From positions 1 through 64,000 of IMG/VR virus record IMGVR_UViG_3300025401_000016: DNA of 64,000 nt. The stretch is one strand, 5' to 3'. The DNA comes from a virus. Within the stretch, counting starts at the first letter, position 1. Each line of letters opens with the position of its first letter. Below, in pieces: positions 17,949 through 62,960 of this stretch. The notes beneath the pieces are model-generated. The model searched no databases. It saw nothing but the letters and a program-made list of their open reading frames with translations, and was not told where the DNA came from. The translations under genes and the position numbers were made by a program.

Positions 17949-17980
17949 TATAAATACGATTACGGTACATAGTATTTATA
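17949..17980. promoter_or_regulatory. Pair of face-to-face T4 consensus late promoters
   Basis: TATAAATA on plus at 17949-17956 and on minus at 17980-17973. Confidence 0.85.
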
Positions 17981-18000: not shown

Positions 18001-18828
18001 ATGGAATCATCAAACCCACTACAACAATATTTTCGTAGACCATCAATTTATTTGAAATTACCCAGTCAGGGTCAGGGATACCCTGAGGGTGCAATCGATC
18101 TTCCTGAAAATTTAGAGATTCCTATATATCCCATGACTGCTATCGATGAGATAACTACTAGAACTCCTGACAGTTTATACAATGGTATGGCTGTAGTAGA
18201 ACTTATTAAAAGCTGTGCACCCAATATCAAAGATCCATGGAGTATACCATTAACTGATTTAGATCCAATATTAGTTGCAATACGTATTGCTACAAACGGT
18301 ACCTTTATGGAGATAGATACTAGTTGCCCAAGTTGCAGCGAAGGTGCAAAATTTGATCTTAATTTAACCGCAGTACTGAATGATTTTCAAGCAGGTGACT
18401 ATAGCACACCGTTGACCATTGGAGATTTAAACTTTAAGTTTAGACCTTTACAATACAGAGAAATCAATGAAACGAATTTAATACAATTTGAAGTTCAAAA
18501 GTTGATTAGTATAGTGCAACAAACAGAAGATCAAGAATTAAAAAATCAAAAAACACAAGAATTGTTACTAAAGATCAATGGGATCGCTTCCAGTGTTATA
18601 ACCAAAACCATTGAATACATACAAACACCAAATAGTACTGTGTTTGAAAAAGAGTATATTAAAGAATTTTTAGATAACTGTGATAAGAATACATTTGAAA
18701 CTGTAAAAGACTTTTCTGTAAAAATCAGAGAACTATCTGAAAATAAACCACTGGACATTACTTGTACTAGTTGCCAACACCAATATAAACAATCATTTGC
18801 TATTAACCCATCAACTTTTTTCGAATAA
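18001..18828 (+). CDS. gp26: Baseplate hub / tail assembly chaperone (T4 gp26-like)
   Basis: P.IYLKLPS.G, P+TA.DE, D+D.IL+AIR.A+ and two CxxC pairs (CPSC, CTSC); AGGAG RBS. Confidence 0.8.
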   Translation: MESSNPLQQYFRRPSIYLKLPSQGQGYPEGAIDLPENLEIPIYPMTAIDEITTRTPDSLYNGMAVVELIKSCAPNIKDPWSIPLTDLDPILVAIRIATNGTFMEIDTSCPSCSEGAKFDLNLTAVLNDFQAGDYSTPLTIGDLNFKFRPLQYREINETNLIQFEVQKLISIVQQTEDQELKNQKTQELLLKINGIASSVITKTIEYIQTPNSTVFEKEYIKEFLDNCDKNTFETVKDFSVKIRELSENKPLDITCTSCQHQYKQSFAINPSTFFE

Positions 18829-18868: not shown

Positions 18869-19052
18869 CGCACAATACGAAAAAGAATGTGATGATATCA
18901 AGACTGGAGCAATGAAAATGGCTTGGTATATGAGAGGTAGTGTATCATATACTGACATACTCAACATGAGCATATCTGAGAGAAAAGCCATAAACAAATT
19001 GATTGATGATAACTTAGACACTACTAAGAAGTCCGGACTACCATTCTTCTAA
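18822..19052 (+). CDS. gp51-like ORF, probably the -1 frameshift extension of gp26
   Basis: The -1 frame is open from the slippery site to TAA 19050-52: RIRLHSLDSEGIKGLIAQYEKECDDIKTGAMKMAWYMRGSVSYTDILNMSISERKAINKLIDDNLDTTKKSGLPFF. First ATG only at 18912/18918. Not in the ORF track. Confidence 0.75.
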   Translation, partial: RIRLHSLDSEGIKGLIAQYEKECDDIKTGAMKMAWYMRGSVSYTDILNMSISERKAINKLIDDNLDTTKKSGLPFF

Positions 19053-19100
19053 AATATTTTTATTTTATCCATAGTTATTCATTTATCATAACTTAGGGTT

Positions 19101-19174
19101 ATCTTTAAAGATTACCTTCGGTAATCTAATACCTTCACTCATACTTCGCTTCGCTCAGTCTATCGTTCGGTATT
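19101..19174 (-). other. Hairpin cluster with cGAAg/GCGAAGC triloops (possible ssDNA origin or primase signal)
   Basis: AGATTACC-ttc-GGTAATCT (19109-27); AATACC/GGTATT stem (19128-33/19169-74) enclosing GCGAAGC on the minus strand (19154-48); palindrome ATCTTTAAAGAT. Confidence 0.45.
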
Positions 19175-19224
19175 GTTTTTATTCACATCTATTCTTTTTT
19201 GTACTTTATTTCTTTTAGGAATAC

Positions 19225-19590
19225 TTGCCGATTTGACTCCATGGTAGTGCTGTTTCAGCACTACCAAAAGTTTTGATCTTGCACGACCGTCATCCTTGCC
19301 ATCTGTTCCCCACATGATCAGCTATTATTGCTATCACGTGCCACCGGTTGCTCTGTAAGGTTCTTTATGGGATTGTAGTTGAATATACGTCCGTTCAGTT
19401 AGGATTTCATTCAGCAACGCATGTTTTATATCATCAAGATAGAATAGATATAAACTCATTGAAGGTTCGCTTTGACGATTGCCTTCTCGGTGTTTCATAG
19501 TCACAAGTATGTGACTACGCTGACTCCAGAATCTGACGGCACAGCACGATCTGTACAATCTCAAGGAGAGCTAACAAACTTAGCTAACGA
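19225..19590 (-). ncRNA. Large structured non-coding RNA-like element, family unassigned
   Basis: GC-enriched gap with at least six local hairpins and four 6-7 bp long-range complementarities, two of them crossing; a G-U versus A-C asymmetry favours the minus strand. Confidence 0.65.
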
Positions 19591-19594
19591 ATTG

Positions 19595-20173
19595 TCAAAC
19601 TGTTAGAGTTAAAATGTTATTGGACTTTGTGTCTGTTTGGCTAAGTGGTTTTGACTTTGTGTCTGTGGAGCCTGCGTATGCTCTAACGAGTTCTTTGTTT
19701 AATTTGAAGAAACTATCAAATTCAGTGATTACCCAATCACCATGTTTTTTACTAACATAGAAAAAAAGATTGTCTATAGTCCATGTTAGTTTGGGTTGTA
19801 CTGCAATGTAACGTCCAATACGATTGAACTTCATTATAAGCATGTTCAAATCGCCATCATCTTCTACATCAAGTAATTGTTCTATCCAACTGTCTATTAT
19901 CTTACATTCGCCTGATAATAGCAAGTGAAAAGGGAAGTCTGCATATGACTTGCACTCGCAATTAAATTTAATCCAAGAATCAGGGGCTATTATATCTCCC
20001 TTAAAGGACTTAGCTTGATTTCCGTCTAAAAAGTTTTTTCGGTGAGAATTGGATCCTCCGATATATGCACCTGAATTAGGAACACGAACAAAAGGCTCGC
20101 CGTACGTTTCACTAAGAAATTTTGCAATTTCCCTTTCATACGAGCTACCTTTTGTTTTACTTTTTGAAGACAT
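19595..20173 (-). CDS. Holliday junction resolvase, PD-(D/E)xK Hjc-type
   Basis: KG.SYEREIA..L...RVPNSGA...GDII...ECKSY motif; adjacent to gp46/gp47. Confidence 0.8.
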   Translation of the reverse strand: MSSKSKTKGSSYEREIAKFLSETYGEPFVRVPNSGAYIGGSNSHRKNFLDGNQAKSFKGDIIAPDSWIKFNCECKSYADFPFHLLLSGECKIIDSWIEQLLDVEDDGDLNMLIMKFNRIGRYIAVQPKLTWTIDNLFFYVSKKHGDWVITEFDSFFKLNKELVRAYAGSTDTKSKPLSQTDTKSNNILTLTV

Positions 20174-20263: not shown

Positions 20264-22336
20264 TCACTGTATTGAAGTGGAAAAATCAATAGTTGTAAAA
20301 CCATTTTCCTTAGTAACTTTTAATACATTTGGTACTCTGCCTACCAACTCTTCACGGTGACTTATTAACCAAATTGACTTACTGCGACGCCTAGACATAT
20401 CCTTAAGTATAGCAACACTATTTTCCACTCCAGTTACATCCATTCCGGAGTCCACTAACTCGTCAATAAACAATGTATTGATTGGTTGATATAAGTTCTC
20501 CCAAACATCTCTGAAAGCAAAACTCAATCCTAGAATCAATCTATTTGCTTCACCTCTAGATAAGTTACCAAAGTCAAGTTCACGTCCTAACTCTGTGATT
20601 TCAACACTCAAATCATTTTTGAATACAACTTGATGCGGTAAACCAATTTTATCTAGGTAGTGTGTTAATCTACTGTTAAGATAACTTAGATTCTGATCTA
20701 CAATCTTTTTACGAACGAAACTATCTTTACTAGTTAGTATGTCTAATAAGAACTTTTGGTGTTCTAACACTTTGGTTAGTTCATTAATCTTATCAAAGTT
20801 AATCTCTTGTATACCGTTACTTTCCATATCACTAATCTGTTCTAGATATGGACTAGTTTCAGAATACATTTTTGTAATCTGTTCAAGTAAATTAATCAAC
20901 TGACTGCTATGCTTGATTGCTTGTGCCTCTGTATCATATATCGTACTTGGTCTAATACCTGGTTCAGGTACCACTTCAAGTAACTGTTCAGCAAATGGGC
21001 TTTCTTCACTTTGCTTTGATACAATATTTTCAAGTATGGTTGCAATTTTGTTACTATGTGTAATAGCTTCGGCTTCTGTTTTATAGAATGTTGTTGGTTC
21101 TGGTTCAATAACAAATATATCATTGGCTAACAATATATTTTGTTCAATAACTTTAGTATCTAAAATTTGTTGTGTATCTGATAACAAACTTTGTTTATCT
21201 GATAAAACTTTGGTATGCTGTTCATCGTGGAAATCCTGTCCACATGCATAACACTTATGATCTTCTAATGTAGCAATTTCATTTGTGAGTTTGTTGACTA
21301 GTTTTTGTTGGTTAGTAATATCTGTTTTAAGACGAGATAATTCTTTATCTCTATCAGTTTTTGCCTTTAACTGAATCGTTCTAGTAGCTTTATCTTTATG
21401 TGCCTGTAGTTCAACTGTAATATCAATATGGCTCAATTGATCATATGTTTTCTGAAGTTCAGAAACTTCTCTATCACGCTTTTGAGTCCATGCAACATCC
21501 CTAGCAACTACTGCATTATATGCATCATAAGCAGACTTCTTTTGATTATAGAGAGTTAAATCTCTATGTGCAAGTAGTTCAGATTCAATATCAATTTCTG
21601 ATAATTGATCATGTTGTTTAACCAAATACTCTAAGTCACTAGCATGTTTCTTTTGCCAAAGTTCATGCCTACGTTTCATACTATCAACTTGTGTAAGTAC
21701 ACGCTTATTGGCTTCTTCTACTGCTTTGATACGAAACTCTTCAGCTTGCATATCATCTTTAGTAACTTTATTCATTACTTTAATGAGTTCAGCTTTCTCA
21801 CTAAGCAAAGTGATACCCAATAACTGTTCAATGATATTGCGTTGATCATTGGCTTTCATTGCCAAAAAAGGTTCACTATAAGTATTGAGTGCAACAATAT
21901 GATTGAACATATCACTACTCATATTGATTACTTTTTCAATCTCTGCTTGTGTTTCTTTGTTTTCACCTTGTGCATCATCAACCACTTTTTGTTGTTCATC
22001 ATTTACATAGAATCTAAGAATATTTGGCTTACGCCCACGCTCAATCTTATAGTTTATACCATTCACACTAAACTCAAGTGTGACTAACATATTTTTAGTA
22101 TTGGTACGATTAACTAAATTATCTTTACGAATGTTATTGATAGCAACACCAAACAATGCATAGCTTAGACCTTGAATTAGGGTAGTCTTACCAGTACCAT
22201 TTCTAGCACCGTCACCACCCATGTCTAAGTTCTCACCTAGAATAAGTGTCAAGTCAGACTTATCTAAGTCAACCCCCTGTGTTACTGCCCCGATTGATAA
22301 AAAATTCTTTAATGTTATGTTTTTAAGAACGATCAT
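20264..22336 (-). CDS. gp46: Recombination endonuclease ATPase subunit (gp46/SbcC/Rad50)
   Basis: Walker A NGTGKT, zinc hook CYAC, signature LSRGE, Walker B LFIDELVD, ISH switch. Confidence 0.95.
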   Translation of the reverse strand: MIVLKNITLKNFLSIGAVTQGVDLDKSDLTLILGENLDMGGDGARNGTGKTTLIQGLSYALFGVAINNIRKDNLVNRTNTKNMLVTLEFSVNGINYKIERGRKPNILRFYVNDEQQKVVDDAQGENKETQAEIEKVINMSSDMFNHIVALNTYSEPFLAMKANDQRNIIEQLLGITLLSEKAELIKVMNKVTKDDMQAEEFRIKAVEEANKRVLTQVDSMKRRHELWQKKHASDLEYLVKQHDQLSEIDIESELLAHRDLTLYNQKKSAYDAYNAVVARDVAWTQKRDREVSELQKTYDQLSHIDITVELQAHKDKATRTIQLKAKTDRDKELSRLKTDITNQQKLVNKLTNEIATLEDHKCYACGQDFHDEQHTKVLSDKQSLLSDTQQILDTKVIEQNILLANDIFVIEPEPTTFYKTEAEAITHSNKIATILENIVSKQSEESPFAEQLLEVVPEPGIRPSTIYDTEAQAIKHSSQLINLLEQITKMYSETSPYLEQISDMESNGIQEINFDKINELTKVLEHQKFLLDILTSKDSFVRKKIVDQNLSYLNSRLTHYLDKIGLPHQVVFKNDLSVEITELGRELDFGNLSRGEANRLILGLSFAFRDVWENLYQPINTLFIDELVDSGMDVTGVENSVAILKDMSRRRSKSIWLISHREELVGRVPNVLKVTKENGFTTIDFSTSIQ

Positions 22337-23346
22337 AAGTTAGTGTAAATGTCCAATAATATTTTCTTGTCAAATGTATTTGATTCAATTGAGTTGATCT
22401 GATCAATAACGATTTGGTCAACACTCTCAAATTTCAACCCATCAAATCCGTTTTGTTCTTGTTGATCTACCATCATTGGGATCAATGTCATCTCACGCAA
22501 TTTGTATTGAGGGATATATGTTTCTCTTAGAAAGTTTGCTTCTTCATATGAAATTGCAAAGTCTAAGTGTACTCTATTATAGCTACCAGGTAATAGTAAT
22601 CCGGACTCATTAGCCATAATATCACTTAACTTTTGTACTCTGAATCGAGGTTGATCGGGCCAACTATGAAACTCTGGCTCTTCACCCCATTCTAGTATCA
22701 TCATTCCCCTTGCATCATCTCCTGCATCTGCAAAGTTATGTGGAAAGGCATTGCCCATGTACCAAATATTTTTATTTGCTTGTCGCTTATGAAAGTGACC
22801 ACTGAATACCCTATCAAACCCTGTAAAGTGTTCTCGTTGAATAGTACCATGATCCGGCATTGCAATCATAGCATTCATGTAAAAGCTGGGCAGTTCAAAA
22901 TGACCAAACATGTATTTGCCACTCATTGACCTAATTTGTTTGTAATCATCTCCTACTAACCATGGAGCAATAACCACGTCCCCATCAACGAACCAATCAT
23001 TACAAATAACAATATTTTTAAGATGTTTTGCAAATTCAACACTTTGAATGTCACGACGGTCACGATAGTATAAGTCGTGATTACCAGGAATAAAATAAAC
23101 AGTGGTAAAAGCGTCATTGAGTTTCTCCAAAGCCCTCAAGCTATAGTTAAGTGTAACAATGTTAAGATTTGCACGATTGTTATGCCAATCACCTAAAAAG
23201 AAACATGTTTCACATCCTTCTTCTTTGGCTTTGGATATAAACCAATCTACAAAATTTAAACAATCTTCATTATGAATAGTGCTATTTGACTTAAGACCAA
23301 AATGCAGGTCTGTGAAAAACGCGGCTTTTTTAAATAAATTACTCAT
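22333..23346 (-). CDS. gp47: Recombination endonuclease nuclease subunit (gp47/SbcD/Mre11)
   Basis: Metallophosphoesterase motifs DLH, GD, GNHD, GHF, SGHFH. ATG 23346 (MSNLFKK) preferred over the TTG at 23382. Confidence 0.93.
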   Translation of the reverse strand: MSNLFKKAAFFTDLHFGLKSNSTIHNEDCLNFVDWFISKAKEEGCETCFFLGDWHNNRANLNIVTLNYSLRALEKLNDAFTTVYFIPGNHDLYYRDRRDIQSVEFAKHLKNIVICNDWFVDGDVVIAPWLVGDDYKQIRSMSGKYMFGHFELPSFYMNAMIAMPDHGTIQREHFTGFDRVFSGHFHKRQANKNIWYMGNAFPHNFADAGDDARGMMILEWGEEPEFHSWPDQPRFRVQKLSDIMANESGLLLPGSYNRVHLDFAISYEEANFLRETYIPQYKLREMTLIPMMVDQQEQNGFDGLKFESVDQIVIDQINSIESNTFDKKILLDIYTNL

Positions 23347-23352
23347 CTGTGT

Positions 23353-23382
23353 ATTATATAGGAAAAGGAGCCGCAAAAGCAA
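23353..23382 (-). promoter_or_regulatory. Sigma70-like promoter for gp47 (leaderless)
   Basis: TTGCTT-18 nt-TATAAT; the A of ATG 23346 is 7 nt downstream of the -10 box. Confidence 0.55.
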
Positions 23383-23405: not shown

Positions 23406-24308
23406 TTATTCTTCGTATACGGTACTACTACCGCTACCTTGTCGTGACCAACTTGGATTTAATCCATTGATCTCTAAAATATCATCACGAATGTTTTGAT
23501 TTCGTTTTTCACTATTCAAAACACGACAGAAACTATTGGTAATAGCGGCTGTGTAGTATGCGAATGGGTTAGCACTTTTGGCTTCGTTAAAGCGTAATCC
23601 AACATATGTCAGTTGTAGAATAGCACTATTACGCATTTCATCATTGTATGTATATCCACGCCAATTGTACTTCATTGCATATTTTTCACACATCATAATA
23701 TACATTTTGGCTAGTTTGTTTGTGATGATTCCATGATCCTTACTAAACTCACCGGACTCTAAATCACCCATCCAATGACTCTTTCCAATACACTTAAATG
23801 TATTTGTTTCATCTAATCTGTAGTGTTGGAATGGGGGAAAATTAACCTTGACATGCACCATGTCATCAATTTCTTTTGCAGTAGTTGGATCTTCCAAGTC
23901 AGCAAAGATTTCTTCGGTATCACCCTCAAATTCAAAGAAATCTTTAGCAGTTTTCTTTTTATCTACTTTGCGGGGTTGTTTTGGTGCAACTGGAATATGA
24001 TCCCAAGTCATAACACGAAAAACTAAATCAGTTACGGGGATAGAATCAGGGCTTACTGAATCTTTTACCCCTGCTTCCAAACTCAATCTTGTAGCACGAG
24101 TTTCTTTAGCAATTTGAATGGTTTCGGGTTTAAGCGCATACTCTAAGCTTTTTTCTAATGATTCAGTGGGCATATCTACAATAAAATCATAGCGATGATC
24201 TTCTGGGTTTAAGTATGAACAATATGCATTTTTACTGGTATGGATCTCTTTGAGAATATCTTTGTTATTTAAATAATTTACTGTTTTTTTGGTAGTTGTT
24301 ATAGTCAT
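23406..24308 (-). CDS. gp55: Late-transcription sigma factor (T4 gp55 family)
   Basis: NYLNNKD+L, NWRGYTY.DEM, F...KS.NPFAYYT....NSF.R....EK motifs. Confidence 0.9.
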   Translation of the reverse strand: MTITTTKKTVNYLNNKDILKEIHTSKNAYCSYLNPEDHRYDFIVDMPTESLEKSLEYALKPETIQIAKETRATRLSLEAGVKDSVSPDSIPVTDLVFRVMTWDHIPVAPKQPRKVDKKKTAKDFFEFEGDTEEIFADLEDPTTAKEIDDMVHVKVNFPPFQHYRLDETNTFKCIGKSHWMGDLESGEFSKDHGIITNKLAKMYIMMCEKYAMKYNWRGYTYNDEMRNSAILQLTYVGLRFNEAKSANPFAYYTAAITNSFCRVLNSEKRNQNIRDDILEINGLNPSWSRQGSGSSTVYEE

Positions 24309-31917: not shown

Positions 31918-34900
31918 ATGGCAACAAGTTCTAGACAATCAAATTTATTTGGTGTAAATGATTGGAAATCAATATACCAAACTTATAATCAAGCTGATTT
32001 TCAAAGCTATGACTTTGAAAGCCTGCGTAAAAATTTCGTAGATTACTTACGTGCCTACTATCCTGAAACATTCAACGACTATACTGAATCTAGTGAATAT
32101 GTAGCATTACTAGATTTAATGGCTTTCATGGGCCAAGCAATGAGTTTCCGTGATGACTTAAATACACGTGAAAATTTTATTGATACTGCACAGCGTAGAG
32201 ATAGTGTTGTCAAATTAGCAAACTTAGTTGGATACACACCAAAACGCAATCTTGCAGGGCAAGGATTATTAAAAATAACAAGTATACAGACATCTGAAGC
32301 AATTAGTGATATTAATGGTATTAATCTTAGTAATTTGTCTGTTATATACAATGACCCAGCTAATTCAAATTGGCAAGAACAATTTAATACAATTATAAAT
32401 TCAGCATTGGTAAGCTCACAAAGAATAGGGCGCCCGGGTAATAGTCAAACTTTACTAGATATCAAAACAGATGAATACGGAATAAGTATCCCTTCTGGTA
32501 GCACTCCAGTTGGTAAGTTTTCTGCTAAAATCGACAATTTAAGTATGAATTTTGAATATGTTAGTGCGACTAGTGTTAACTCAAATAGTTTATATGAGCC
32601 TGGCCCCGCACCTTCAAATAGTTTTAATATTTTATATAGAAATGATAAATTAGGTTACGGTAGTGCTAATACTGGTTTCTTTATGTATTTTAAACAAGGT
32701 GGACTGCAACAATACTTCTTTACTATAGCAGAACAAACTGTAAACAATGTTGTTAGCATAGGAAATATCGAAGGTATTAATAACACAGACACATGGTTAT
32801 TTCAAATCGATCCTACTACTGGTGCATACACACAATGGACACAAGTAGAAAATATATACAATACACAAAATAGTTCAACAATTGGTAGCAAATTAAAAGT
32901 GTTTAGCGTAACTTCTGGGTTTAATGACACAGTTAGTTATAATTTTGGTGATGGTGTATTCAGTGAAATTCCAGTTGGTAATTTTGTGGCACTGGTCCGT
33001 TCAAGTAATAGACTAACATATACGATCAATCCAAGCGAAATGCGTGGTATCACCGTACAACTTAACTATATAAGCAAGTATAATAGAACAGAAACATTGT
33101 CTATGTCATTAGGATTGCAATTACCAGTTAGTAATGCACAAGCTCCTGAGACCATTGCAGATATAAAAAGTAGAGCACCACAAAGTTTCTATACACAAAA
33201 CCGTATGGTCAATGGACAAGACTATAATAGTTTTCCTTTTACATTATACAATTCAATCATTAAAAGTAAAGCACTTAATCGTGTGAGTGTTGGTGTAAGT
33301 CGTAACTATGATTTATTAGATCCAAGTGCAAAGTATTCTAGTACAAATGATTTTGCAGATGATGGTGGGTTATATGTAGATGAGACCTCAGGGTTTGTCA
33401 ATTTCACATCAACTGGTAGTAGTGATATCATTAGTTTCTTTACTGGTACATTGGCAACAATATTAGGTGGTCATCGTGCACAACAATATTATGTTCAACA
33501 CTATCCATGGGTTAATTTTCAAGTTACAGACTTAGCAAGCGTGTACTATTGGAATCAAACAACTAGAGACAATGAGCAAACAACTGGTTTCTTTTACACA
33601 GAGAATGGCCCAGTGAGTATAGGTGTTAATAGCTCCGGGTATGTACAATACTTAACTGAAGGTGCGTTGTGTAGATTTGTTCCTCCGGCAGGATACTATT
33701 TTGATAAAAACAATTTGTTAGTAGAAGGATTGCCTGGCCCTAGTGATATAGTTTATATTTGGACTAATGTAGTAAGTGTTAACGGTGACGGTGCTAACAA
33801 TGGATATGGTAATTTAAGCAATGGCACAGGACCAGTTGTATTAAGTTCATATGTACCAAATGGTTGTAGAATTACTACAGTAATACCTTCATTTACGAAC
33901 GTAATTGGAACTACAGTAGTACAAGAAGCAATACAACAAATTAATTTAAATAATAATTTTTCATTGGTGTACAACAATACTTTAGGTGCAAATGTAACAC
34001 GCTGGAGCCTGAGTACATATGAAGATAATTCCGCTTTTGTAACATTTCAAAGTTTAGGGAGTGGTAATTATTTAGTAACATACAATAGTACTGCATATTA
34101 TTTTGCAAGTGCAAAAGAAGTTCGTTTTGCATATGATCAAGGCAAAGTAATTTATGATCCACTAAGTGGAAAAGTAATGCAAGATACAATTACTATATTA
34201 AAAAGTAATAGTCAACCAATCAGTAATAGTCCATTGTTCAATGATATAACATTATATGTTGTTGGGCAGCCAAAAGAAAGTGATGGCTATCCAGATGACT
34301 ATAGTGTTGAAGTAAGTACAATGAATGGCAGTTTAACTGATGTTATTCGTGATCCGGACTTCTTTACTAAGGTTACCAACTATACATCAGGTAATAGCAA
34401 CTATCAATACTTTGTTTTCTTACAACAAATTACTGATACTAATTTGTTATCACGTTATGTAATGATTCCTACAAGTGAAATAGTTTATCAATATGGTACA
34501 TTAAGTGACATTGAAGTTGTTAAATATCAATTCCCAGTTAATACTGTATTCTATGCACCATTTGAAGATAAATTTTATACAAGTGCACAAAGTGCAACTT
34601 ATGGAACTGTGTATACTGTGCAAGAATTGACCACATATAGTGCGAGAACAGGTCGTCAAGGTTTGTATTTTCAATATCAACATGTATCTGGGGATACAAC
34701 ACGTATAAATCCTGCTACTACAAATATTATTGATTTGTATTTGGTTACAAGTGGATATTATACTGCATATACAAATTATATAACTGACACTACAGGTACT
34801 GTTACACAACCTCCGGTACCCACATTAGAAGAATTAACAACAACTTATAGTAACTTAAATAACTTTAAAATGCTCACTGACAATATCATTATGAATAGTG

Positions 34901-62498: not shown

Positions 62499-62618
62499 AT
62501 GAAACAAGTTTGGGCTAGCTATAATGAAGCTCAACAAGCTTGGAAAGAGTTGATGTATCATAAAAAGAATACAGAACAAACTGATATTTCCAAAACAGTT
62601 GACGATTCAAAGAAATAA
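62499..62618 (+). CDS. Small hypothetical protein (39 aa)
   Basis: AGGA RBS before ATG 62499; same frame and stop as the listed 62415..62618 ORF. Confidence 0.4.
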   Translation: MKQVWASYNEAQQAWKELMYHKKNTEQTDISKTVDDSKK

Positions 62619-62626
62619 ATATATAG

Positions 62627-62910
62627 TGTAAGTTATTGCTGTATGAAGCAAAGAGAAAGGTGTTCTGGACCCGGGTTCGAGCCCCGGCACTTCCACCAAG
62701 AGTATATTAGATTAGTGTATTCTTGACGGGGGTGAGCATGGTTTCGACAGGGCAAAGAGTAACAGAGTGGACAGCACATCAGCAACGATGTAAAAAGAAG
62801 AAAATCTATAAAGGCAAACGATTCAGTTTTCCAATTAGCAGCCTAAACACTGCTTAGGGTAAGACATACCTCGTAACAGAAATTCAGGACCTGCTTCGGC
62901 AGGTTTCCTT
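62627..62910 (+). ncRNA. ssrA: Circularly permuted (two-piece) tmRNA
   Basis: T arm CCGGG-TTCGAGC-CCCGG and CACTTCC-A-CCA end at 62698, before the 5' end GGGGGTG...TTCGAC at 62728. G3-U70 Ala determinant. Tag GCA AAC GAT TCA GTT TTC CAA TTA GCA GCC TAA (62814-46). The 5' boundary is estimated from the late box at 62615-21. Confidence 0.93.
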
Positions 62911-62912
62911 TT
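62889..62912 (+). terminator. Rho-independent terminator after tmRNA
   Basis: ACCTGC-TTCG-GCAGGT followed by TTCCTTTT. Confidence 0.8.
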
Positions 62913-62960
62913 GTCAACTAAAACACATACTACCGCGTTATATATGTATAGGAGTAATCT

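What the first reader, a model, noticed from the sequence alone, without database searches (positions are those of the whole stretch)
19225..19590. Unassigned ~360-nt highly structured, pseudoknotted RNA downstream of the resolvase (best candidate for a new system)
Local stems seen (plus coordinates): 19569-74/19580-85, 19498-505/19510-17, 19461-65/19482-86, 19425-32/19447-54, 19311-18/19333-40 (G-U on minus, A-C on plus) and a perfect 11-bp 19242-52/19256-66. Long-range pairs on the minus strand: UCCUUG 19567-62 with CAAGGA 19298-93, GAUUGUA 19560-54 with UACAAUC 19377-71, CCGUCA 19539-34 with UGACGG 19292-87 (adjacent to the first, crossing) and GUUGCU 19418-13 with AGCAAC 19352-47 (crossing). 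UGGAGUCA occurs twice. I see no group I/II intron, RNase P, tRNA or tmRNA core. Inference: a large phage ncRNA co-transcribed with gp47-gp46-resolvase. With the A tract and DNA hairpins right behind it, one hypothesis is a folded pre-primer RNA (ColE1 RNA II-like R-loop origin); a ribozyme or protein scaffold is the alternative.
Basis: partly seen in the sequence, partly recalled or inferred. Interest (0 to 1): 0.85.

Follow-up and report, generated by a model that had tools for sequence, protein, structure and literature searches.

The report
New doubly knotted jumbo-phage RNA
The gene-free gap behind a nuclease gene of this uncultured giant T4-like phage encodes a real, intricately folded non-coding RNA of about 365 bases that well over a hundred related phages keep at the same spot, that matches no catalogued RNA family, and whose job is still unknown.

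Summary
Verdict: real, and not in any catalogue I could search.

The minus strand of 19224-19586 encodes a ~365-nt structured non-coding RNA.
- 88 non-redundant copies from uncultured jumbo T4-like phages support 87 base pairs in 15 helices. 95.6% of cells are paired and 66 pairs show compensatory changes. No shuffle (0 of 500) or slid control comes close.
- There are two pseudoknots and one G:G/U:U tertiary pair.
- No ORF is conserved.
- Rfam 15 gives no match. That covers RNase P, group I, GOLLD, ROOL and Polynucleobacter-1.

The other three long-range pairings are not conserved; the real pseudoknots lie elsewhere.

The RNA is single-copy in five complete 352-525 kb genomes. It is absent from 185,579 prokaryote genomes.

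New here:
- A second subtype shares the 5' domain.
- The pseudoknot core of that subtype is recognised by a model built from an unannotated ~600-nt element. That element is present in five copies per genome in cultured Rak2-like phages (CBB, XaC1, 121Q relatives).

Function is untested. My best guess is a stand-alone, trans-acting folded RNA, either a protein scaffold or a ribozyme. The R-loop origin idea has no specific support.

This scan has already found the same family on other DNA.

The parts
19224..19586 (-). Conserved core of the ncRNA (about 363 nt), from P1 to the 3' box
   Evidence: Conserved at 60-98% nt identity in relatives. 87 pairs, 95.6% of cells paired, 66 pairs with compensatory changes. 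MFE z-score -5.16. No Rfam match.
19587..19597 (-). Conserved 5' leader GACAAUUCGUU. Relatives read uAA(A/C)AAUUnGUU. It may be a -10-like promoter box that places the start at P1.
   Evidence: Position profile over 88 copies: A at -10 in 87 of 88, T at -6 in 79 of 88. The promoter role is inferred, not shown.
19569..19585 (-). P1 hairpin (AGCUAA/UUAGCU)
   Evidence: All 6 pairs have compensatory changes (helix 1).
19524..19568 (-). P2 domain. CUCC 19568-65 pairs with GGAG 19527-24. An internal loop UUGA / AGAUUCU follows. GAUUGUACAG 19560-51 pairs with CUGUGCCGUC 19544-35.
   Evidence: helices 2-3: CG to UA switch in 3 sequences; pair 43/68 reads UA:28, AU:26. In subtype 2 the same helix reads CGCC/GGCG and CCCG/CGGG.
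19496..19519 (-). P3 hairpin. In most relatives it is capped by a GNRA tetraloop (GCAA, GUGA, GCGA, GUAA).
   Evidence: All 7 pairs covary (helices 4-5). Loops read from alignment A2.
19488..19492 (-). P4 5' strand (CACCG). It pairs with CGGUG 19346-19342 and closes the central multi-helix junction.
   Evidence: UA:55, CG:24, AU:5 at the outer pair; 99.8% of cells paired (helix 6).
19461..19486 (-). P5 hairpin (GAAGG ... CCUUC, inner UCG/CGA, loop with invariant AAAG)
   Evidence: helices 7-8 (AU:45, GC:43 at one pair).
19421..19459 (-). P6 hairpin. Its loop 19442-19437 (CUAUCU) forms pseudoknot PK-a with AGAUGG 19304-19299.
   Evidence: P6: 10 of 11 pairs covary. PK-a: 5 of 6 pairs covary (UA:53/CG:31, AU:50/GC:32, CG:58/UA:23) (helices 9-10).
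19413..19418 (-). S1 5' strand GUUGCU. It pairs with AGCAAC 19352-19347.
   Evidence: helix 11. The same helix covaries in subtypes 2 and 3 (GUUAC:GUAAC, GUUGU:ACAAC, GUUGC:GCAAC).
19382..19412 (-). P8, a hairpin of variable length inside S1
   Evidence: Variable in length and sequence, with base pairs kept (helix 12).
19353..19381 (-). Conserved junction ACUACAAUCCC ... CUUACAG. ACUAC and the ACAG just before S1 3' are nearly invariant. UCC 19372-19370 forms pseudoknot S2 (PK-b) with GGA 19309-19307.
   Evidence: Invariant columns. S2 pairs: UA:55, AU:11, GC:8, CG:7 (helix 13).
19311..19340 (-). P9 hairpin
   Evidence: 10 of 11 pairs covary (helix 14).
19285..19295 (-). Box 1, GGAUGACGGUC. 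U19286 covaries with U19231 of box 2 as G:G or U:U.
   Evidence: GG:62, UU:25, GU:1. 15 changes on the tree, 11 independent pairs all in the same direction, sign test p about 0.001.
19242..19266 (-). P11, a nearly invariant 10-11 bp hairpin (GGUAGUGC ... GCACUACC)
   Evidence: helix 15. Used as a search pattern: more than 118 viral contigs, 0 prokaryote genomes.
19225..19241 (-). 3' tail with box 2 (UGGAGUCAAAUCGGCAA)
   Evidence: AAnCGGCA is nearly invariant. Covaries with box 1.
19128..19174 (-). Tail hairpin T1 (AAUACC ... GGUAUU) with a purine-rich GAACGA ... GAAG interior. It follows a variable A-rich linker (19175-19223).
   Evidence: The GA(A/G)CGA ... GAAG hairpin is present 40-100 nt after the core in 65 of 85 relatives.
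19109..19127 (-). Tail hairpin T2 (AGAUUACC GAAG GGUAAUCU) followed by UU. This is the probable transcript end, between the converging genes.
   Evidence: An equivalent 8-bp hairpin with a tetraloop and a short U run is visible in the relatives printed. The generic terminator scan did not call it. The role is inferred.
19595..20173 (-). Upstream gene, the 'resolvase': a PD-(D/E)XK nuclease of Pfam PF24608. It is context, not shown to be a partner.
   Evidence: Pfam E = 3e-28. It lies directly upstream in nearly all type-1 loci. In subtype-2 loci L209 and L218 the gene directly upstream of the RNA is a SegE GIY-YIG gene, not a PDDEXK_15 gene, and in L219 it is an unrelated ORF.

Best explanation
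This is a gene for a stand-alone, highly structured non-coding RNA. The core is about 365 nt. With the conserved tail hairpins the transcript would be about 490 nt.

Shown:
- The RNA strand is the minus strand.
- It folds into 15 helices. A central junction is closed by helix P4.
- It has an H-type pseudoknot. S1 is GUUGCU:AGCAAC and S2 is UCC:GGA, with an invariant ACAG just 5' of the S1 3' strand.
- A second pseudoknot joins the P6 loop to the 3' domain.
- A non-Watson-Crick G:G/U:U contact links two CGG boxes.
- It is one copy per genome in jumbo T4-like phages of 350-525 kb.
- It is found in no cellular genome and matches no catalogued family.

Inferred:
- It is transcribed from its own -10-like box just before P1, or else processed from the end of the gp55-gp47-gp46-nuclease operon.
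- It ends at the T2 hairpin.
- It acts in trans during infection as a compact three-dimensional RNA.
- The invariant unpaired nucleotides clustered around the S1/S2 pseudoknot are the working site. It would be either a binding platform for a phage or host protein (my first choice) or a ribozyme active site.
For: Conservation and structure:
- Blastn finds the element in related loci.
- Alignments A1 and A2 show invariant blocks alternating with covarying hairpins.
- RNAalifold: 39 of 56 pairs have compensatory changes.
- My full structure with both pseudoknots: 95.6% of cells paired, 66 of 87 pairs with double changes, 0 of 500 shuffles as good, slid controls only 30-45% paired.

Not protein-coding:
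- 85 of 88 copies have stops in the frame of the 76-aa ORF.
- Lengths are not multiples of three, and there is no codon periodicity.

A gene in its own right:
- The position is the same in essentially all type-1 loci fetched: 166 loci have the nuclease gene directly upstream, 164 the baseplate gene converging downstream.
- It is single-copy in five complete genomes.
- A conserved -10-like box with A2 and T6 sits 6-7 nt before P1.
- The tail hairpins are conserved.
- The RNA persists where the gene directly upstream is a SegE gene rather than the nuclease gene.

Tertiary-fold hallmarks:
- Two pseudoknots.
- GNRA loop on P3.
- The G:G/U:U pair, with 11 independent co-switches.

Wider family:
- The type-1 5'-domain model finds subtype 2 (E = 1e-5 and 3e-3).
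- The pseudoknot-core model from cultured phages CBB and XaC1 finds all 11 subtype-2 loci before any noise.
- In CBB the syntenic copy has its own promoter-like signal. It matches the divergent RpoD-like class described for CBB (PMC5259590; sequence).
- In phage UE-S1 the depositors annotated terminators on both sides of the element.
Against: - No expression data.
- Trans action, protein binding and catalysis are all untested.
- The promoter reading rests on a short A-rich motif that could simply be part of the RNA. The generic promoter and terminator scan found nothing above background.
- The type-1 core model does not detect subtypes 2 or 3, and the type-3 model does not detect type 1. The link between type 1 and the cultured-phage elements is therefore indirect. 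It rests on subtype 2, a shared motif, shared topology and synteny.
Confidence: 0.6

Rival explanations
1. Pre-primer or R-loop origin RNA. The folded transcript would stay hybridised to the A-rich DNA behind it and prime leading-strand synthesis, as in ColE1 RNA II or T4 oriF/oriG.
For: - The RNA sits at the boundary of the replication/recombination module and is followed by an A-rich stretch.
- In cultured Rak2-like phages the possibly related element occurs in five copies spread 34-94 kb apart. This recalls the several origins of T4.
Against: - Type 1 is single-copy in complete 352-525 kb genomes.
- The A-rich linker is not conserved in sequence or length. What follows it is a pair of conserved RNA-type hairpins that look like a tail and terminator.
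- The composition profile shows no skew inflection at the locus.
- As far as I know, known R-loop origins do not need a 15-helix, doubly pseudoknotted RNA with invariant junction nucleotides.
Confidence: 0.1
2. Cis-acting end of the operon: a 3' UTR structure that stabilises, processes or terminates the gp55-gp47-gp46-nuclease mRNA. In the co-directional arrays of Rak2-like phages it could instead be an antitermination or leader element.
For: - It always follows the last gene of a leftward operon within 7-72 nt.
- In CBB the other four copies lie inside co-directional gene arrays.
Against: - The complexity, two pseudoknots and invariant unpaired nucleotides far exceed what known 3'-end or antitermination elements need.
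- The RNA persists when the upstream gene is replaced.
- There is a -10-like box before it.
- Terminators are annotated on both sides of the UE-S1 copy.
Confidence: 0.12
3. RNA partner of the adjacent PD-(D/E)XK nuclease. The two would form a ribonucleoprotein, by analogy with the omega RNAs that sit directly behind IscB and TnpB genes.
For: The RNA lies directly behind a PF24608 nuclease gene in nearly all type-1 loci and in most subtype-2 loci, although the genes further downstream differ between the two subtypes.
Against: - In L209 and L218 the gene directly upstream of the RNA is a SegE GIY-YIG gene, not a PDDEXK_15 gene; in L219 it is an unrelated ORF on the other strand.
- In the cultured Rak2-like phages the neighbour is an endonuclease VII gene on the opposite strand, and four further copies have unrelated neighbours.
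- No variable guide-like segment is evident.
Confidence: 0.06
4. Relic or free-standing derivative of a mobile ribozyme, such as a group I-like intron that has lost its exons.
For: - T4-like phages carry group I introns and homing endonucleases, and a SegE gene sits next to the RNA in some relatives.
- The order S1 5' - hairpin - S2 5' - S1 3' - hairpin - S2 3' recalls the P3/P7 pseudoknot of group I introns (my own knowledge).
Against: - No hit to Intron_gpI or any other ribozyme family, even at E up to 10 on a 901-nt query.
- There is no interrupted gene and there are no flanking exon halves.
- The RNA is strongly conserved at a fixed locus in hundreds of phages, with ongoing compensatory evolution, which is not how a relic behaves.
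Confidence: 0.05
5. A small protein gene: the 76-aa ORF at 19334-19564 on the minus strand, or another short ORF.
For: An open frame of 76 codons exists in this window.
Against: - 85 of 88 relatives have 1-8 stops in the homologous frame.
- Region lengths are spread evenly over the three classes mod 3.
- Column entropy is flat over codon positions: 0.757, 0.783, 0.748.
- Several relatives have no ORF of 60 aa or more in the gap.
Confidence: 0.01

Closest known systems
Unannotated ~600-nt multi-copy element of cultured Rak2-like jumbo phages (Pectobacterium phage CBB, Xanthomonas phage XaC1, Cronobacter GAP32, Escherichia 121Q/PBECO4/UE-S1 and others). I found no description of it.
   Same: - One copy lies at the syntenic place, after gp55-gp47-gp46 and before the converging baseplate-hub gene, on the gp46 strand.
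- It has the same H-type pseudoknot: S1 GUUGY:RCAAC, S2 GGAAG:CUUCC, ACMG just before S1 3', then C(C)G, with both helices covarying.
- A model of that core finds all 11 subtype-2 RNAs tested.
- It has no Rfam match.
   Different: - It is about 600 nt rather than 365.
- It has four or five paralogous copies per genome, against one copy for type 1.
- No recognisable type-1 5' domain: model R2 finds nothing.
- The type-1 core model does not reach it, so the relationship to this window's RNA is indirect.
GOLLD (RF01998) and ROOL (RF03087), large ornate RNAs often carried by phages and prophages. Cryo-EM shows RNA-only multimers (bioRxiv 10.1101/2024.12.08.627333, also PMC12286853).
   Same: - A large, phage-borne, intricately folded RNA with pseudoknots, found by comparative analysis, with no known function.
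- It contains the palindrome CCAUGG and a symmetric G:G/U:U pair, which could in principle serve self-association. That is speculation.
   Different: - No sequence or structure match: no Rfam hit at gathering score or at E up to 10.
- It is smaller than they are (they are roughly 580-800 nt, from my own knowledge).
- It is not next to tRNA genes: ARAGORN finds only a tmRNA 43 kb away.
- It is restricted to virulent jumbo T4-like phages.
Large pseudoknotted ribozymes: bacterial RNase P RNA and group I introns
   Same: - Similar size (330-400 nt).
- Long-range helices closing a multi-helix core.
- Pseudoknot topology, a GNRA tetraloop, and invariant unpaired nucleotides at junctions, including an ACAG motif that superficially recalls the ACAGAA of RNase P.
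   Different: - None of the RNase P or intron covariance models scores, even at E up to 10.
- My by-eye comparison with the RNase P conserved regions CR-I and CR-V, recalled from memory, fails at several required positions.
- There are no exons or splice sites around it.
ColE1 RNA II and T4 oriF/oriG R-loop primers
   Same: A transcript next to an A-rich DNA stretch at the edge of a replication/recombination gene block.
   Different: No origin signature was found. The downstream hairpins are conserved as RNA-type tail hairpins. The RNA is far more elaborate than is needed for R-loop formation. See the rival explanations.
Polynucleobacter-1 motif (Rfam RF01718; Weinberg et al. 2010, PMC2864571). 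Earlier notes of this scan named it as closest known.
   Same: It comes from fresh water and Burkholderiales according to the paper's table. That is the same kind of habitat as the likely host of this phage; the phage carries a beta-proteobacterial-type tmRNA.
   Different: RF01718 finds nothing at E up to 10 in this phage record. It also finds nothing at E up to 1 in three subtype-2 records or in CBB and XaC1.
ncRNA001-004 of Pseudomonas phage PA5oct (Lood et al. 2020, PMC7318152). PA5oct is the closest cultured relative by its gp46 and nuclease proteins.
   Same: Abundant unexplained ncRNAs of a related jumbo phage, found by RNA-seq.
   Different: No similarity by blastn, by the shared motifs, or by any of my three models.

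Membership tests
Any Rfam 15 family (4227 models) | Covariance-model score at or above the family's gathering score | tested here: not met
   The whole window at gathering score gives only the tmRNA at 62585-62909. Region 18900-19800 at E up to 10 gives only chance hits of 10-21 bits. Relatives L002, L006, L008, L010 and L013 give nothing at E up to 0.1.
GOLLD / ROOL | Match to RF01998 or RF03087; frequent adjacency to tRNA genes | tested here: not met
   No hit. No tRNA gene in the window.
RNase P RNA | Match to an RNase P model; the P4 pseudoknot with conserved regions CR-I and CR-V | tested here: not met
   No RNase P model scores at E up to 10. The CR-I/CR-V comparison was done by eye from memory and is only a lead.
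Group I / group II introns | Match to the intron models; an interrupted host gene with exon halves on both sides | tested here: not met
   No hit. The nuclease ORF ends before the RNA and the next gene converges.
Polynucleobacter-1 (RF01718) | Score of 37 bits or more against RF01718 | tested here: not met
   No match at E up to 10 in the phage's own record. No match at E up to 1 in five related records.
Protein-coding gene | A conserved open frame, indels in multiples of three, third-position variation | tested here: not met
   85 of 88 copies have stops; lengths mod 3 fall 34/24/30; entropy is flat over codon positions.
R-loop / pre-primer replication origin (ColE1 RNA II, T4 oriF/oriG type) | A persistent RNA-DNA hybrid and initiation of DNA synthesis at the site; a promoter feeding a DNA-unwinding element | not testable with these tools
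   Only indirect points: single copy, no skew inflection, and a variable linker followed by conserved hairpins.
The new jumbo-phage RNA family itself (type 1) | P1-P11 architecture with pseudoknots PK-a and S1/S2, boxes 1 and 2, and a position between the PF24608 nuclease gene and the converging T4_baseplate gene | tested here: met
   The window sequence is row 1 of A2 and forms every helix. For synteny.
Superfamily with subtype 2 and the Rak2-like multi-copy element | Shared 5' domain and/or shared S1/S2 pseudoknot core, detectable by covariance models | tested here: inconclusive
   - Type 1 to subtype 2 through the 5' domain: E = 1.1e-5, 0.0029 and 0.37.
- Type 3 to subtype 2 through the core: 11 of 11 loci, E = 0.0065-0.48.
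- Type 1 to type 3 directly: no hit either way. Only motif, topology and synteny agree.

The most novel reading that the evidence does not exclude
The RNA is the founding member of a widespread class of jumbo-phage RNAs. The class spans hundreds of uncultured lake phages and, in diverged multi-copy form, cultured coliphages of the 121Q/Rak2 group. Its conserved S1/S2 pseudoknot with the invariant ACAG would be the active site of a new ribozyme, or the core of a new phage ribonucleoprotein needed for infection.
Probability: 0.25. Interest if true: 0.92.

Novelty: categorically new. Interest (0 to 1): 0.78.

Why it matters
Large RNAs with many covarying helices, pseudoknots and invariant junction nucleotides have almost always turned out to be ribozymes, ribonucleoprotein cores or, recently, self-assembling RNA cages. 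New classes of this size are rare.

- **Reach.** This one is universal at a fixed locus in a large clade of 350-525 kb phages and absent from cells. It therefore points to an unknown RNA-based step in the life of giant phages.
- **Testability.** The probable link to an unannotated five-copy element in cultured E. coli, Cronobacter, Pectobacterium and Xanthomonas jumbo phages, if it holds, makes the question testable at the bench. Expression, deletion, probing and cryo-EM could all be done.
- **Annotation.** It also shows that the roughly 700-nt 'empty' gaps in those published genomes are not empty.

Tried and rejected
**Rfam.** Gathering score on the window, E-value mode on the locus, on five relatives and on two cultured-phage loci all gave nothing.

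**Searches of the 'phages' collection and of prokaryote genomes.**
- Blastn of the locus against 50,697 'phages'-collection (GenBank) records: no match.
- Pattern scan of 185,579 prokaryote genomes for the P11 hairpin: 0 hits.

UCCUUG/CAAGGA, GAUUGUA/UACAAUC and CCGUCA/UGACGG are rejected on comparative grounds, although the single-sequence MFE draws them.

**Ideas dropped.**
- Anti-Shine-Dalgarno reading of the invariant CCUCC: rejected, because it is a helix strand that covaries with GGAG and reads CGCC or CCCG in subtype 2.
- Reading the 3' end of P11 as a tRNA-like ACCA end: rejected, because the CC is paired.
- Strict partnership with the nuclease gene: weakened by loci where a SegE or unrelated gene, not the nuclease gene, lies directly upstream.

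**Similarity checks that failed.**
- PA5oct ncRNA001-004: no similarity.
- Polynucleobacter-1 (RF01718): no match.
- Type-1 core model R1 against subtypes 2 and 3: no hit.

**Not conclusive or not available.**
- The generic promoter and terminator scan was at background.
- The Fremin et al. 2023 catalogue of phage structured RNAs (PMC10690425) could not be checked, because its supplements are not held. Its candidates average 67 nt.
- Literature searches found no description of this RNA.
Full report
**Setting.** The window is the first 64 kb of a 100.8-kb IMG/VR phage record estimated to be 28% complete. Around the finding the minus strand carries four genes in a row:
- a gp55-like late sigma gene (23406-24308);
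- gp47 (22333-23382);
- gp46 (20264-22336);
- a 192-aa 'resolvase' (19595-20173), which Pfam places in PF24608, the phage PD-(D/E)XK nucleases (E = 3e-28).

On the plus strand a T4_baseplate-family gene (18001-18828) and a 46-codon ORF (18912-19052) converge on them. The 540-nt gap between the two blocks holds the finding. The nearest cultured relatives by gp46 and by the nuclease are jumbo phages: PA5oct (42-47% aa identity), Atu_ph07, and the Rak2/121Q/CBB group (about 36%).

- Relatives of the nuclease gene in IMG/VR carry, directly behind it, a stretch matching the minus strand from about 19593 to 19225 at 68-98% nucleotide identity. They have no shared ORF there.
- I cut these copies down to 88 that are less than 93% identical to one another.
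- The alignment shows invariant blocks separated by hairpins whose two sides change together. RNAalifold finds 56 pairs, 39 with compensatory changes.
- My own covariation scan adds the P2 and P3 helices and two pseudoknots.

On the full structure, 87 pairs in 15 helices, the counts are:

| Measure | Observed | Control |
|---|---|---|
| Cells forming a standard pair | 95.6% | 30-45% when partners are slid by 1-3 columns |
| Pairs with changes on both sides | 66 of 87 | 23-32 when partners are slid by 1-3 columns |
| Shuffles reaching the observed values | - | 0 of 500 |

The window's own sequence folds 5.2 standard deviations better than its shuffles.

**It is not a protein gene.** Region lengths fall evenly into the three classes mod 3. 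There is no codon periodicity.

- All six local stems are real (P1, P3, P5, P6, P9, P11).
- Of the long-range pairs only GUUGCU 19418-13 with AGCAAC 19352-47 (my S1) survives.
- The other three are drawn by the single-sequence MFE but are not kept in relatives. CUCC 19568-65 pairs with GGAG 19527-24, with a CG to UA switch in three sequences. GAUUGUACAG 19560-51 pairs locally with CUGUGCCGUC 19544-35.
- The real long-range contacts are these:
  - P4, 19492-88 with 19346-42;
  - PK-a, the P6 loop 19442-37 with 19304-299, where five of six pairs covary;
  - S2, UCC 19372-70 with GGA 19309-07.
- S1 and S2 together form an H-type pseudoknot with a nearly invariant ACAG just before the 3' strand of S1.
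- One further contact is unusual. Position 19286 (in GACGG-N-C) and position 19231 (in AA-N-CGGC) are G and G in 62 copies, U and U in 25, and mixed in one. There are 15 changes on the tree and 11 independent pairs, all going the same way (p about 0.001). That pattern points to a symmetric non-Watson-Crick pair. Earlier notes of this scan describe 'two boxes that mutate together' in relatives; I found the pair independently.
- P3 is capped by GNRA tetraloops in most copies.

**Ends of the gene.**
- *5' side.* Eleven nucleotides before P1 are conserved, uAA(A/C)AAUUnGUU. The near-invariant A and T are spaced like positions 2 and 6 of a -10 hexamer ending 6-7 nt before P1. There is no conserved -35, and the generic scan is at background. 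'Own promoter' is therefore an inference.
- *3' side.* Behind the core comes a variable A-rich linker and then two hairpins that relatives keep.
  - T1 (19128-19174) has a purine-rich GAACGA ... GAAG interior, present in 65 of 85 relatives.
  - T2 (19109-19127) is an 8-bp stem with a tetraloop and a short U run, which I read as the terminator between the converging blocks.

**Distribution.**
- The RNA sits at the same place in essentially all type-1 loci.
- It is single-copy in five complete genomes of 352-525 kb.
- It is absent from one genome each of 185,579 prokaryote species.
- It is absent, at blastn sensitivity, from the 'phages' collection (50,697 GenBank records).

**A wider family.**
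- *Subtype 2.* More distant nuclease relatives (about 50% aa identity) carry a different-looking ~400-nt conserved gap. It begins with the same module: P1, then CUCCUUGA, a hairpin, then GAUUCUGGAG. The closing helix there reads CGCC/GGCG or CCCG/CGGG. A covariance model of the type-1 5' domain finds it at E = 1.1e-5, 0.0029 and 0.37. Its core is the same pseudoknot written differently: GUUGY ... GGGRG-UACAGGRYAACCG-CYUCC. In this subtype the gene directly upstream of the RNA can be a SegE homing endonuclease or something else. The converging baseplate gene stays. The RNA is therefore not tied to the nuclease.
- *Type 3, in cultured phages.* The Rak2-like jumbo phages CBB and XaC1 have the same module, gp55-gp47-gp46, then an endonuclease VII gene on the other strand, then a ~790-nt unannotated gap before the baseplate hub gene. 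That gap holds a ~600-nt element conserved in 65 cultured phage genomes, with four or five copies per genome. All copies lie in ~700-nt unannotated gaps, and none has an Rfam match.
  - The element contains the same S1/S2 pseudoknot, and both helices covary among paralogues.
  - A model of that core, built only from CBB and XaC1, ranks all 11 subtype-2 loci above any noise (E = 0.0065-0.48).
  - It does not reach type 1, and the type-1 core model reaches neither.
  - So type 1 to subtype 2, and subtype 2 to type 3, are each supported by a model. Type 1 to type 3 rests on motif, topology and synteny.
  - The CBB copy is preceded by a signal like the 'divergent RpoD-like' promoter class described for CBB (TGAAACG-like -35 plus TATAAT; PMC5259590).
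  - In phage UE-S1 the depositors annotated terminators on both sides of the element. Both points fit separate transcription units.

**What it is not.** No Rfam family matches at any threshold used. That includes RNase P, group I/II introns, GOLLD, ROOL, 6S and tmRNA. It also includes Polynucleobacter-1, which earlier notes of this scan named as closest; I tested it directly with negative results. PA5oct's four RNA-seq-defined ncRNAs (PMC7318152) are unrelated. I found no paper describing the RNA. The 2023 catalogue of phage structured-RNA candidates (PMC10690425) could contain fragments of it, but its supplements are not held.

**How it most likely works.**
- *Shown:* a conserved, compactly folded, doubly pseudoknotted RNA encoded once per genome at the end of the recombination-nuclease operon.
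- *Inferred:* it is a stand-alone transcript that acts in trans. Its invariant unpaired nucleotides around S1/S2 (ACUAC, ACAG, the CGG boxes) would form a binding or catalytic site.

I put about 0.9 on 'genuine structured ncRNA of an uncatalogued family' and about 0.6 on 'stand-alone and trans-acting'. Within the trans-acting reading I lean to a protein-binding scaffold over a ribozyme, without direct evidence. The remaining weight is spread over these rivals:
- cis-acting operon end: 0.12;
- R-loop origin: 0.10;
- partner of the nuclease: 0.06;
- relic of a mobile ribozyme: 0.05;
- protein gene: 0.01.

**Novelty and value.** This scan has already met the same family in other genomes and reached the same basic verdict. 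I score on what I tested here. The RNA matches no known family and no known functional class, so I file it as categorically new. The caveat is that large ornate phage RNAs of unknown function (GOLLD, ROOL) are a known phenomenon.
- the corrected structure for this window;
- the phylogenetically tested G:G/U:U pair;
- single-copy status in complete genomes;
- the negative test of Polynucleobacter-1;
- the model-supported chain to a multi-copy unannotated element in cultured Rak2-like phages, which makes the function testable at the bench.

Noticed in passing
L232 (Pectobacterium phage CBB, NC_041878.1) 174345-175130, 32395-32853, 94327-94871, 258185-258770, 336372-336834; L231 (Xanthomonas phage XaC1) 209074, 48743, 14887, 303307, 117439: Cultured Rak2-like jumbo phages carry four or five paralogous copies of a ~600-nt conserved, structured, unannotated element. 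Each copy fills a ~700-nt 'empty' gap. 65 records of the 'phages' collection have it, and it has no Rfam match. Its pseudoknot core is recognisably the same as in subtype 2 of the RNA studied here.
   Followed up: partly
L008/L193 3085-3480, L013 4505-4960, L213 3185-3620, L209 (minus strand) around 2346-2576: A second subtype of the RNA (~400 nt) occurs in 22 or more viral contigs. It has the same 5' domain and a compact GGGRG-UACAGGRYAACCG-CYUCC pseudoknot. L213 is intermediate between the two subtypes.
   Followed up: partly
window 62585-62937 (+): The phage encodes a permuted (two-piece) tmRNA of the beta-proteobacterial type (124.7 bits; tag peptide ANDSVFQLAA). This hints at a Burkholderiales-like host.
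   Followed up: no
L008 4972-5679 (+) and its equivalents in L193, L196, L199 and L202: In subtype-2 loci the gene right after the RNA encodes a 235-243 aa protein. It has a weak, sub-threshold match to the C-terminal domain of arginyl-tRNA-protein transferase (ATE_C, E = 1.7e-4), a family that uses aminoacyl-tRNA.
   Followed up: no
L209 2743-3810 (-), L218 6462-6896 (-): SegE-type GIY-YIG homing-endonuclease genes sit directly upstream of the RNA, in the slot that the PD-(D/E)XK nuclease gene fills in most relatives. The site looks like a hot spot for mobile endonucleases.
   Followed up: partly
window 17949-17956 (+) and 17973-17980 (-): Two exact T4-type late-promoter boxes (TATAAATA) face away from each other in the 30-nt gap between the 862-aa gene and the baseplate gene. 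This fits the gp55-like sigma gene at 23406-24308.
   Followed up: no
window 19128-19174 and 19109-19127 (-): The hairpins that another first-stage note (e1-6001236) reads as a DNA origin module are kept, as an RNA-type hairpin pair, behind the RNA in most relatives (T1 motif in 65 of 85). I read them as the RNA's tail and terminator.
   Followed up: partly
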